Part shown: positions 52,526-54,797 of the stretch, one piece after another
Layout of the letters: each line of letters opens with the position of its first letter
Position numbering within the stretch: the first letter of the stretch is position 1
Assembly: GCF_009931435.1 (NCBI RefSeq)
Contig: NZ_CP043414.1
DNA length: 64,000 bases
DNA from: Escherichia coli
GTDB lineage: Bacteria; Pseudomonadota; Gammaproteobacteria; Enterobacterales; Enterobacteriaceae
Strand: one strand, 5' to 3'
Notes under the pieces: generated by a model
Told to the model about the DNA's origin: nothing
What the model saw: only the letters and a program-made list of their open reading frames with translations
Database searches by the model: none
Made by a program: the position numbers and the translations under genes

Positions 52526-52814
52526 ACGTTCGCGCTTAACAAAACACGACCATATGGATAACAAAACCATAGCATTTGCAAGGGATAACGCACAGCGCTC
52601 TTCACTCCTGATGGGGCATATCGTTTTGCCTGATAAAGAGGGCGTGCTTTTGCGTATTTGCCGAGATACCAGGCAATTTCATGGGATATAAACGCCTGTA
52701 AACTCACCCGGCGAATATTATCGCTCTGAATTTTAAATAAATTTATTTCTCGCAAGCCACCCCGGTATTAACCCAGGCAGCCAGCATTTTTTATTTTCCT
52801 CATGGAGAATCGCT

Positions 52815-54797
52815 ATGTCACGTCCGCAATTTACCTCGTTGCGTTTGAGTTTGTTGGCTTTGGCTGTTTCTGCCACCTTGCCAACGTTTGCTTTTGCTAC
52901 TGAAACCATGACCGTTACGGCAACGGGGAATGCCCGTAGTTCCTTCGAAGCGCCTATGATGGTCAGCGTCATCGACACTTCCGCTCCTGAAAATCAAACG
53001 GCTACTTCAGCCACCGATCTGCTGCGTCATGTTCCTGGAATTACTCTTGATGGTACCGGACGAACCAACGGTCAGGATGTAAATATGCGTGGCTATGATC
53101 ATCGCGGCGTGCTGGTTCTTGTCGATGGTGTTCGCCAGGGAACGGATACCGGACACCTGAATGGTACTTTTCTCGATCCGGCGCTGATCAAGCGTGTTGA
53201 GATTGTTCGCGGACCTTCAGCATTACTGTATGGCAGTGGCGCGCTGGGTGGGGTGATCTCCTACGATACGGTCGATGCAAAAGATTTATTGCAGGAAGGA
53301 CAAAGTAGTGGTTTTCGTGTCTTTGGTACTGGTGGCACGGGGGACCATAGCCTGGGATTAGGCGCGAGCGCGTTTGGGCGAACTGAAAATCTGGATGGTA
53401 TTGTGGCCTGGTCCAGTCGCGATCGGGGTGATTTACGCCAGAGCAATGGTGAAACCGCGCCGAATGACGAGTCCATTAATAACATGCTGGCGAAAGGGAC
53501 CTGGCAAATTGATTCAGCCCAGTCTCTGAGCGGATTAGTGCGTTATTACAACAACGACGCGCGTGAACCAAAAAATCCGCAGACCGTTGAGGCTTCTGAA
53601 AACAGCAACCCGATGGTTGATCGTTCAACAATTCAACGCGATGCGCAGCTTTCTTATAAACTCGCCCCGCAGGGCAACGACTGGTTAAATGCAGATGCAA
53701 AAATTTACTGGTCGGAAGTCCGTATTAATGCGCAAAACACGGGGAGTTCCGGCGAGTATCGTGAACAGATAACAAAAGGAGCCAGGCTGGAGAACCGTTC
53801 CACTCTATTTGCCGACAGTTTCGCTTCTCACTTACTGACATATGGCGGTGAGTATTATCGTCAGGAACAACATCCGGGCGGCGCGACGACGGGCTTCCCG
53901 CAAGCAAAAATCGATTTTAGCTCCGGCTGGCTACAGGATGAGATCACCTTACGCGATCTGCCGATTACTCTGCTTGGCGGAACCCGCTATGACAGTTATC
54001 GCGGTAGCAGCGACGGCTACAAAGATGTTGATGCCGACAAATGGTCATCTCGTGCGGGGATGACTATCAACCCGACCAACTGGCTGATGTTATTTGGCTC
54101 ATATGCCCAGGCATTCCGCGCCCCGACGATGGGCGAAATGTATAACGATTCTAAGCACTTCTCGATTGGTCGCTTCTATACCAACTATTGGGTGCCAAAC
54201 CCGAACTTACGTCCGGAAACTAACGAAACTCAGGAGTACGGTTTTGGGCTGCGTTTTGATGACCTGATGTTGTCCAATGATGCCCTGGAATTTAAAGCCA
54301 GCTACTTTGATACCAAAGCGAAGGATTACATCTCCACGACTGTCGATTTCGCGGCGGCGACAACTATGTCGTATAACGTCCCGAACGCCAAAATCTGGGG
54401 CTGGGATGTGATGACGAAATATACCACTGATCTGTTTAGCCTTGATGTGGCCTATAACCGTACCCGCGGCAAAGACACCGATACCGGGGAATATATTTCC
54501 AGTATTAACCCGGATACCGTTACCAGCACCCTGAATATTCCGATCGCTCACAGTGGCTTCTCTGTTGGTTGGGTCGGTACGTTTGCCGATCGCTCAACAC
54601 ATATCAGCAGCAGTTACAGCAAACAACCTGGCTATGGTGTGAATGATTTCTACGTCAGTTATCAAGGGCAGCAGGCGCTCAAAGGTATGACCACTACTCT
54701 GGTATTGGGCAACGCCTTCGACAAAGAGTACTGGTCGCCGCAAGGCATCCCACAGGATGGTCGTAACGGAAAAATTTTCGTGAGTTATCAATGGTAA
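52815..54797 (+). CDS. chuA: TonB-dependent outer membrane heme/hemoglobin receptor ChuA
   Basis: 660-aa ORF with signal peptide, TonB box region and C-terminal ...YQW beta-barrel terminus. Confidence 0.95.
   Translation: MSRPQFTSLRLSLLALAVSATLPTFAFATETMTVTATGNARSSFEAPMMVSVIDTSAPENQTATSATDLLRHVPGITLDGTGRTNGQDVNMRGYDHRGVLVLVDGVRQGTDTGHLNGTFLDPALIKRVEIVRGPSALLYGSGALGGVISYDTVDAKDLLQEGQSSGFRVFGTGGTGDHSLGLGASAFGRTENLDGIVAWSSRDRGDLRQSNGETAPNDESINNMLAKGTWQIDSAQSLSGLVRYYNNDAREPKNPQTVEASENSNPMVDRSTIQRDAQLSYKLAPQGNDWLNADAKIYWSEVRINAQNTGSSGEYREQITKGARLENRSTLFADSFASHLLTYGGEYYRQEQHPGGATTGFPQAKIDFSSGWLQDEITLRDLPITLLGGTRYDSYRGSSDGYKDVDADKWSSRAGMTINPTNWLMLFGSYAQAFRAPTMGEMYNDSKHFSIGRFYTNYWVPNPNLRPETNETQEYGFGLRFDDLMLSNDALEFKASYFDTKAKDYISTTVDFAAATTMSYNVPNAKIWGWDVMTKYTTDLFSLDVAYNRTRGKDTDTGEYISSINPDTVTSTLNIPIAHSGFSVGWVGTFADRSTHISSSYSKQPGYGVNDFYVSYQGQQALKGMTTTLVLGNAFDKEYWSPQGIPQDGRNGKIFVSYQW

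What the first reader, a model, noticed from the sequence alone, without database searches (positions are those of the whole stretch)
52780..52817. Possible FourU-type RNA thermometer occluding the chuA Shine-Dalgarno
Immediately upstream of the chuA SD (GGAG at 52804-52807) is a U-rich run (ttttttatttt, 52787-52797) that could pair with the SD. A FourU thermometer has been described in the orthologous Shigella shuA leader, so temperature-gated translation of ChuA is plausible here.
Basis: partly seen in the sequence, partly recalled or inferred. Interest (0 to 1): 0.35.

Follow-up and report, generated by a model that had tools for sequence, protein, structure and literature searches.

The report
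Known chuA FourU RNA thermometer
The short hairpin that hides the ribosome-binding site of the E. coli haem-receptor gene chuA is really there, but it is the already published and database-curated shuA/chuA "FourU" RNA thermometer, so the finding is correct and ordinary.

Summary
A U-run at 52787-52797 lies upstream of GGAG (52804-07) and the chuA ATG (52815).

The minimum-free-energy fold is a 7-bp hairpin: A52793-U52810, U94-A09, U95-A08, U96·G07, U97-A06, C98-G05, C99-G04, with loop UCAU. It buries the whole Shine-Dalgarno sequence.

Rfam family RF02597 (shuA/chuA 5' UTR thermoregulator) matches 52786-52817 at 60.1 bits (gathering score 58). The match is 32/32 identical to the family consensus.

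Published reporter fusions and point mutations show temperature-gated translation on this same sequence: S. dysenteriae shuA, UPEC chuA (Kouse 2013) and EHEC chuA (Sy & Tree 2022). The mutated base, -19/U273, is window 52796.

The 50 nt around the hairpin are identical in 2220 of 2227 chuA-positive complete E. coli genomes.

Two caveats apply. Nearest-neighbour folding does not predict melting between 25 and 37 C (dG -8.4 to -6.1 kcal/mol, predicted Tm about 69 C). The papers I read report no structure probing or toeprinting.

One modest extension: 69 distinct ChuA-ortholog leaders from other Enterobacterales also sequester the SD, mostly through a different, upstream U-tract register.

Verdict: interpretation supported, already known, low interest.

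The parts
52786..52817 (+). shuA/chuA thermoregulator element as defined by Rfam RF02597 (32 nt, -29 to +3 of chuA)
   Evidence: cmscan gives 60.1 bits against a gathering score of 58, model positions 1-32/32, every base identical to the consensus. This is the same 32-nt insert that Kouse 2013 showed to be sufficient for thermoregulation.
52793..52799 (+). 5' arm of the hairpin (anti-SD): A-UUUU-CC. The four U's are 52794-52797.
   Evidence: MFE and centroid structure. Pair probabilities are 0.78-1.00 at 37 C. Published mutations at -19 (52796) and -17 (52798) change expression as predicted, and their computed stabilities rank the same way.
52800..52803 (+). tetraloop UCAU
52804..52810 (+). 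3' arm: the Shine-Dalgarno GGAG (52804-07) plus AAU
   Evidence: GGAG is invariant in all 69 distinct ortholog leaders.
52815..54797 (+). chuA coding sequence (TonB-dependent haem/haemoglobin receptor, 660 aa). The start codon is 7 nt after the SD.
   Evidence: ORF; RefSeq annotation under the identical match.
52787..52792 (+). Distal half of the U-run. It is unpaired in the E. coli MFE fold. It is homologous to the CUUU(U)C tract that is the predicted main SD partner in most other genera. It overlaps the CyaR-complementary stretch and lies just 5' of the published Rho/Term-seq 3' end at +271 (= 52794).
   Evidence: The alternative distal-register fold in E. coli is only -2.0 kcal/mol at 37 C. 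The +271 position comes from PMC9002310 and was mapped through the gap-free Sakai alignment.
52778..52790 (+). CAGCCAGCAUUUU, complementary in 12 of 13 positions to CyaR nt 20-32 (AAAAUGCUAGCUG). Probably the published CyaR activation site, described as about 15 nt upstream of the SD.
   Evidence: CyaR sequence read from MG1655. Complementarity read directly from the sequences. Location statement from PMC9002310. CAGCCAGC is nearly invariant across genera.
52487..52525 (+). chuA promoter region: -35-like TTGATC (52487-92), -10-like AATAAT (52510-15), Fur-box-like GATAATAATTCTCATTATC (52507-25), and inferred +1 at 52524, giving a 291-nt leader.
   Evidence: Promoter scan (such sites are no more frequent here than in shuffles). 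The 291-nt UTR from dRNA-seq in Sakai was transferred through a gap-free alignment. The Fur-box similarity is my own reading against the textbook 19-bp consensus (16/19).

Best explanation
This is the chuA copy of the shuA/chuA FourU-type RNA thermometer.

chuA is transcribed from a Fur-repressed promoter with a 291-nt leader. In the last 30 nt of that leader, A-UUUU-CC (52793-99) pairs with GGAGAAU (52804-10). This forms a small, AU/GU-rich hairpin that buries the Shine-Dalgarno sequence.

At about 25 C the hairpin is stable enough to out-compete 30S binding, so little ChuA is made. At 37 C it is about 2.3 kcal/mol weaker, the ribosome gains access, and translation rises. The haem receptor is therefore made only when both low iron and body temperature are sensed.

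Shown by others, on identical sequence: temperature-dependent, post-transcriptional reporter expression; sufficiency of the 32-nt element; and opposite effects of stabilising and destabilising point mutations.

Inferred: that the physical cause is temperature-dependent breathing or opening of this hairpin, and that this particular strain behaves the same way.
For: - Rfam RF02597 hit at 52786-52817: 60.1 bits, above the gathering score of 58, 32/32 identical.
- The hairpin is the MFE and centroid fold in 29-, 32-, 38-, 93- and 306-nt contexts.
- Kouse 2013 (PMC3660397): the 32-nt shuA element is sufficient; -19 U>C represses at 37 C; -17 C>A de-represses at 25 C; the UPEC chuA leader behaves the same.
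- Sy & Tree 2022 (PMC9002310): EHEC U273A gives 2.6-fold more expression at 25 C.
- -19/U273 equals window 52796, and the window's leader aligns with Sakai's without gaps.
- Computed stabilities rank with the reported phenotypes: WT -8.4 (25 C) and -6.1 (37 C); U>C -8.7 at 37 C, about the same as WT at 25 C; U>A -2.5 at 37 C.
- The 50 nt at 52783-52832 are identical in 2220/2227 E. coli genomes, and in E. albertii, ST131 and Sakai, while the mid-leader diverges.
Against: - Nearest-neighbour thermodynamics predict no opening in the physiological range. The hairpin stays >=0.97 probable from 20 to 50 C, and the two-state Tm is about 69 C.
- Kouse 2013 contains no structure probing or toeprinting, so melting is inferred from genetics.
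- The reported effect sizes are modest.
- Any U-rich leader tends to pair with an SD in silico: shuffled upstream sequence gives P(SD paired) about 0.8.
- A similar predicted FourU hairpin in Yersinia enterocolitica hemR1 showed no thermoregulation (PMC6158557). Structure prediction alone would therefore not have been enough.
- Nothing was measured in this strain.
Confidence: 0.9

Rival explanations
1. The hairpin is a constitutive translational damper and a landing pad for sRNAs (RyhB and Esr41 at the RBS, CyaR just upstream). On this view the reported temperature effect comes from something else, such as temperature-dependent sRNA or Hfq activity or mRNA stability, and not from melting of the hairpin.
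For: Hfq-CRAC peaks at the RBS, and RyhB/Esr41 repression and CyaR activation are reported for this leader. CyaR nt 20-32 are 12/13 complementary to 52778-90. Folding predicts no melting between 25 and 37 C. The papers read report no structure probing.
Against: The 32-nt element alone, behind a constitutive promoter in a heterologous host, confers thermoregulation with unchanged mRNA levels. Single-base changes that only alter hairpin stability shift the response in the predicted directions. CyaR activation persists in the U273A mutant, so the two act independently.
Confidence: 0.05
2. The primary role of the U-run is in transcription. It would be the release or pause site for premature, Rho-dependent termination in the leader (3' end at +271 = 52794), with SD pairing incidental.
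For: Term-seq 3' ends at +271 and +297, and a bicyclomycin-sensitive read-through maximum at +267-273, are reported. These map onto the U-run and the hairpin's 5' arm.
Against: The bicyclomycin effect is only about 1.4-fold and needs sequence at +177 to +217. It is reported as independent of the thermometer. It also does not explain the point-mutant phenotypes in the 32-nt construct, which lacks the upstream leader. The more likely reading is an additional role, not an alternative one.
Confidence: 0.04
3. The pairing is a by-product of a U-rich, AT-rich leader next to a purine-rich SD and has no regulatory meaning.
For: z-scores are weak in longer contexts (-1.24 and -0.72). Shuffled upstream sequence still pairs with the SD with P about 0.8.
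Against: The element passes the Rfam gathering score. It is invariant in 2220/2227 genomes although the mid-leader diverges by about 13%. The SD is sequestered in 69 ortholog leaders. Published mutagenesis supports function.
Confidence: 0.01

Closest known systems
Rfam RF02597 shuA_thermo (shuA/chuA 5' UTR thermoregulator; Kouse et al. 2013, PLoS One 8:e63781)
   Same: Identical in all 32 positions, with the same 7-bp stem and UCAU loop. It has the same position relative to the orthologous gene and the same long Fur-controlled leader.
   Different: Nothing in the element itself. The window's leader is the EHEC/phylogroup-D/E-like variant: 98% identical to Sakai and about 87% to B2/UPEC upstream of the element.
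Salmonella agsA FourU thermometer (Waldminghaus 2007), the founding member of the FourU class, and Yersinia lcrF FourU
   Same: Four consecutive U's pair, by A-U and G·U pairs, with SD-region purines in a short hairpin at the 3' end of a 5' UTR. Translation is higher at 37 C. agsA served as the positive control in the chuA assays.
   Different: There is no sequence homology. In chuA the U's face AGAA (52806-09) and the two SD G's are held by CC. The chuA leader is 291 nt and carries several other regulators (CyaR, Rho, RyhB/Esr41). The comparison with agsA and lcrF structures rests on my own knowledge and on the papers' descriptions; I did not recompute it.
shuT/chuT RNA thermometer (Wei & Murphy 2017, hsp17-like class), on the opposite strand of the same intergenic region
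   Same: Same locus, same logic of Fur control plus temperature control, and an SD-occluding hairpin.
   Different: It has a 42-nt leader that forms a single hairpin and no FourU motif, so it belongs to a different family. In this window the region folds no better than shuffles (z = 0.43).
Predicted FourU hairpin of Yersinia enterocolitica hemR1 (Jaworska et al. 2018, PMC6158557)
   Same: It lies in front of an orthologous haem receptor, and its predicted hairpin has four U's opposite the RBS.
   Different: No thermoregulation of HemR1 could be demonstrated, and the hairpin contains an unpaired G-G. It shows that a predicted FourU hairpin in front of a ChuA/HemR gene is not proof of function.

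Membership tests
Rfam RF02597 shuA_thermo | Covariance-model score at or above the curated gathering score (58 bits) | tested here: met
   60.1 bits, full-length 1-32/32, E = 8.5e-09 for the 801-nt search and 6.8e-07 for the 64-kb window.
Rfam RF02597 shuA_thermo | Located immediately 5' of, and including, the start codon of a shuA/chuA haem-receptor gene | tested here: met
   The element ends on the ATG at 52815-17 of the 660-aa ORF, which RefSeq annotates as chuA in a 100%-identical genome.
FourU class of RNA thermometers | Lies in the transcribed 5' UTR | tested here: met
   The dRNA-seq +1 in Sakai gives a 291-nt UTR. The window aligns with Sakai without gaps, so +1 = 52524. This is inferred by identity, not measured in this strain.
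FourU class of RNA thermometers | [quoted passage not shown] | tested here: met
   U52794-97 pair with A52809, A52808, G52807 and A52806. C98 and C99 pair with G05 and G04. This is a predicted structure only.
FourU class of RNA thermometers | The hairpin opens as temperature rises from about 25 to 37-42 C | tested here: inconclusive
   ViennaRNA gives dG -8.4 at 25 C, -6.1 at 37 C and -5.1 at 42 C. Pair probability stays >=0.97 and the predicted Tm is about 69 C. Kouse 2013 reports no probing or toeprinting.
FourU class of RNA thermometers | Translation (not mRNA level) of the downstream gene rises with temperature, and point mutations that stabilise or destabilise the stem shift the response | not testable with these tools
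   This is shown in the literature on identical sequence: shuA 32-nt element, UPEC chuA leader, EHEC U273A. The computed mutant stabilities agree in rank.

The most novel reading that the evidence does not exclude
SD sequestration in front of ChuA-type haem receptors may be ancestral and widespread in Enterobacterales, including largely environmental genera, and not a special adaptation of Shigella and pathogenic E. coli.

In 46 of 69 distinct ortholog leaders the predicted main partner of the SD is a different, more upstream tract. The helix is AGC(G/A)CUUU(U)C pairing with GGAGAGUUGCU, a longer and stronger hairpin of -9 to -11 kcal/mol. The genera include Kluyvera, Citrobacter, Enterobacter, Lelliottia, Leclercia, Cedecea and Limnobaculum.

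Escherichia, Buttiauxella and a few others use the proximal register instead. The Escherichia FourU would then be a derived, weakened version of the ancestral structure, and the run UUUUUUAUUUU would be the fused remnant of two alternative anti-SD tracts.

If those other hairpins are also temperature- or sRNA-gated, the thermometer family is much broader than Rfam's Escherichia-only model.
Probability: 0.3. Interest if true: 0.3.

Novelty: already known. Interest (0 to 1): 0.08.

Why it matters
The element helps pathogenic E. coli and Shigella restrict an outer-membrane haem receptor, which is both costly and immunogenic, to the warm, iron-poor host. It is one layer of an unusually dense control stack on a single leader: Fur, Rho, CyaR, RyhB/Esr41 and the thermometer.

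For the genome scan, the value is as a positive control. A tool-free reader recovered a genuine, curated cis-regulatory RNA at exact coordinates.

Nothing new about E. coli biology follows from it. The only fresh material is the comparative picture in other genera and the reminder that thermodynamic folding alone neither predicts nor refutes thermometer behaviour.

Tried and rejected
1. I do not treat this as refutation, because 30S competition and not full melting sets the output, and because the mutant energies rank correctly.

2. RNAalifold on the MAFFT alignment of 69 leaders found only a 4-bp long-range GGCA/UGCC pairing with no covariation. Gaps in the U-tract hide the hairpin, so I counted named structures instead.

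3. The apparent compensatory change C-G to U-A at A1 columns 45/76 supports the distal register. It is ambiguous, though, because the same G>A change also creates U52794-A52809 in the proximal register, and it represents only about two independent events.

4. I tested whether CyaR binding at 52778-90 frees the SD or AUG. Forcing those bases unpaired did not increase predicted accessibility, so I dropped the idea.

5. RNAduplex of CyaR against the long leader returned unrealistic duplexes full of loops, and the energy was not clearly better than shuffles. I kept only the directly readable 12/13 complementarity.

6. RF02597 does not detect the leaders of other genera even at E<=1, so they cannot be filed in that family.

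7. Minus-strand features are not credible. The promoter-like site at 52821-52793 is no more than chance (3 found versus 2.4 expected), and the antisense ORFs at 52465-52755 and 52733-52978 are unannotated in RefSeq.

Full report
**Observation**

The run tttttt-a-tttt is at 52787-52797, GGAG at 52804-07, and ATG at 52815-17. The ATG opens a 660-aa ORF that RefSeq annotates as chuA (TonB-dependent haem/haemoglobin receptor ChuA/ShuA) in genomes carrying identical sequence. The divergent neighbour is shuT/chuT, whose annotated start is at window 52132 on the minus strand.

**Structure**

In every context tried (29, 32, 38, 93 and 306 nt), the minimum-free-energy and centroid folds contain the same 7-bp hairpin:
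- A52793-U52810
- U94-A09
- U95-A08
- U96·G07
- U97-A06
- C98-G05
- C99-G04
- loop UCAU; dG37 = -6.1 kcal/mol

So the four U's proper are 52794-97. They face AGAA, while the two G's of the SD are held by CC. The first six U's of the run are unpaired.

As a statistical object the hairpin is unimpressive:
- z = -2.99 for the 29-nt core, but -1.24 and -0.72 in longer contexts.
- Simply shuffling the U-rich upstream part still gives a mean probability of 0.81 that the SD is paired, against 1.00 observed (0/100 shuffles reach it).

**Identity**

Rfam 15 contains a family for exactly this element, RF02597 shuA_thermo, "shuA/chuA 5' UTR thermoregulator". It matches 52786-52817 on the + strand at 60.1 bits (gathering score 58). 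The match is full length and identical to the consensus at all 32 positions. E is 8.5e-09 in the local search and 6.8e-07 for the whole window.

**Published experiments on the same sequence**

Kouse et al. 2013 (PMC3660397):
- They showed temperature-dependent, post-transcriptional control of S. dysenteriae shuA.
- The 32-nt element (-29 to +3) behind a constitutive promoter is sufficient.
- -19 U>C (stabilising) lowers expression at 37 C, and -17 C>A (destabilising) raises it at 25 C, with unchanged mRNA.
- The 293-nt chuA leader of UPEC UTI89 behaves the same way, with -19 U>C and U>A mutants.

Sy & Tree 2022 (PMC9002310):
- They mapped the EHEC Sakai TSS, giving a 291-nt leader.
- U273A gives 2.6-fold more expression at 25 C.
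- They added CyaR activation, a repressive +177..+217 segment, and Rho-dependent termination at +271.

The window's leader aligns with Sakai's without a single gap and at 98% identity. The published coordinates therefore transfer as follows:
- +1 = 52524
- U273 = -19 = 52796
- -17 = 52798
- +271 = 52794
- +177..+217 = 52700-52740

A -35-like TTGATC and a -10-like AATAAT sit at 52487-92 and 52510-15. A Fur-box-like GATAATAATTCTCATTATC at 52507-25 overlaps them; this is my reading, 16/19 to the textbook consensus.

**Conservation within Escherichia**

The chuA upstream region is present in 2236 of 5426 complete E. coli genomes. Identity to the window over 421 nt falls into three bands: >=99% (255 genomes), 95-99% (751) and 80-90% (1230). 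By contrast, the 50 nt at 52783-52832 are identical in 2220 of the 2227 genomes that match them.

An alignment of the window, ST131 (B2), Sakai and E. albertii shows the last 52 nt of that alignment (window 52779-52830, the last 36 nt of the leader plus the first 16 nt of chuA) to be invariant, while the middle of the leader is riddled with substitutions.

**Temperature dependence in silico**

- ViennaRNA gives dG -8.4 (25 C), -6.1 (37 C) and -5.1 (42 C) kcal/mol.
- Hairpin pair probabilities stay >=0.97 up to 45 C.
- dG crosses zero only near 69 C.

What the model does reproduce is the ranking of the published mutants. U>C at 52796 gives -8.7 at 37 C, as stable as wild type at the repressive 25 C. 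U>A gives -2.5 at 37 C, and C>A at 52798 gives -1.7.

Neither "probing" nor "toeprint" occurs in Kouse 2013. Physical opening of this particular hairpin is therefore inferred from genetics in the papers I read.

**Beyond Escherichia (not in the papers read)**

A scan of one genome per species found 80 ChuA-ortholog loci at 57-98% protein identity. They come from Kluyvera, Citrobacter, Enterobacter, Lelliottia, Leclercia, Buttiauxella, Cedecea, Pluralibacter, Limnobaculum, Pragia, Leminorella and others.

Their start codons and upstream 60 nt gave 69 distinct leaders. GGAG, the motif CCAGGCAGCCAGC, and GAGAGUUGC are (nearly) invariant across them. The tract between is U/C-rich but variable.

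Two registers can occlude the SD.

Proximal register, as in the E. coli FourU:
- Complete (7/7 pairs) only in Escherichia, Pseudocitrobacter and Buttiauxella.
- 6/7 in many Citrobacter and Kluyvera; 3-4/7 in most Enterobacter.

Distal register, pairing AGC(G/A)CUUU(U)CA with UGGAGAG-UGC-U:
- Forms standard pairs in 89% of cells, against 41-55% when the 3' partners are slid by 1-3 columns.
- Has C-G to U-A double changes at one pair in 6 sequences, plus one A-U.

From pair probabilities, the SD is paired with mean P = 0.90 (0.71 for shuffled upstream sequence). The distal tract is the main partner in 46 leaders and the proximal tract in 23.

In E. coli itself the distal fold is worth only -2.0 kcal/mol at 37 C, against -6.1 for the FourU hairpin.

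Three cautions apply:
- The double change is also explained by the proximal register and reflects about two events.
- RF02597 does not recognise these leaders.
- A comparable predicted FourU in Yersinia enterocolitica hemR1 was not thermoregulated (PMC6158557).

I therefore present this as a hypothesis, with probability about 0.3.

**Neighbouring regulators**

CyaR, read from MG1655, is complementary through nt 20-32 (AAAAUGCUAGCUG) to window 52778-90 (CAGCCAGCAUUUU) in 12 of 13 positions. The site ends 3 nt before the hairpin and 14 nt before the SD, which fits the published description of about 15 nt upstream of the SD. Forcing this site single-stranded did not change predicted SD or AUG accessibility. 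That agrees with the published finding that CyaR acts independently of the thermometer.

**Verdict**

The feature is a known, curated element and has been experimentally tested on identical sequence in three backgrounds.
- Confidence that it acts as a temperature-responsive SD-occluding hairpin: 0.9.
- Novelty: already known.
- Interest: low (0.08).

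Noticed in passing
window 52133-52180, minus strand (upstream of shuT/chuT start at 52132): This is the short chuT/shuT leader, with a Fur-box-like GATAATCATGATCATTCTC. It is the site of the second published thermometer of the locus (hsp17-like; Wei & Murphy 2017, PMC5458455). The predicted fold here is weak and no better than shuffles (-5.8 kcal/mol, z = 0.43), and no Rfam family hit it.
   Followed up: partly
window 52710-52725 (+), with U/A-rich tail to about 52745: A terminator-like hairpin, GGCGA-AUAUUA-UCGCU, is followed by CUGAAUUUUAAAUAAAUUUAUUU. It lies inside the +177..+217 segment (52700-52740) whose removal raised chuA-GFP 9-fold and abolished the bicyclomycin effect in Sy & Tree 2022. 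The stem is not conserved in the B2/ST131 leader (GGTGATATCTAATCAT). That might relate to the reported higher expression of the UPEC fusion, but this is untested inference.
   Followed up: partly
window 52752-52785 (+); alignment A1 columns 4-43: A near-invariant C-rich motif occurs across genera, arranged as swapped repeats: GCCAGC-CA-CCCAGG, a 4-10 nt spacer, then CCCAGG-CA-GCCAGC. The window has GCAAGCCACCCCGG ... CCCAGGCAGCCAGC. It is predicted to fold only as 2-bp helices separated by CA/CA internal loops. The 3' copy overlaps the CyaR-complementary site. The reason for such strong conservation from Escherichia to Leminorella is not explained by CyaR pairing alone.
   Followed up: partly
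window 52777-52780 with 52816-52819 (A1 columns 34-37 with 86-89): RNAalifold's only consensus pairing across the 69 leaders is GGCA with UGCC/UGUC, that is, with the UG of the start codon and the first bases of codon 2. It shows only G-C to G-U changes and no covariation. It could help close the leader around the AUG, or it could be coincidence.
   Followed up: no
window 52825-52843 (+), codons 4-10 of chuA: A terminator-like hairpin, CGCAAUUUACCUCGUUGCG, is followed by UUUGAGUUUG. It lies just downstream of the published Term-seq 3' end at +297 (= 52820). It appears in the MFE folds of the extended leader.
   Followed up: no
window 57-2056 (-), 37150-37263 (-), 43043-43114 (-), 61495-61812 (-): Other Rfam hits above the gathering score in the window are five tandem rdlD antitoxin RNAs, GadY, the ES205 sRNA and two AgrB antisense RNAs. 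All are known E. coli elements unrelated to this finding.
   Followed up: no
E. coli genome hits H50, H30, H75: A few genomes carry disrupted versions of the region. In H50 the match covers only query positions 31-91. H30 has two places. In H75 the match starts at query base 7 and the gene is annotated only as a plug-domain protein. In addition, 7 genomes have a substitution within 52783-52832. These natural variants of the thermometer region were not inspected.
   Followed up: no
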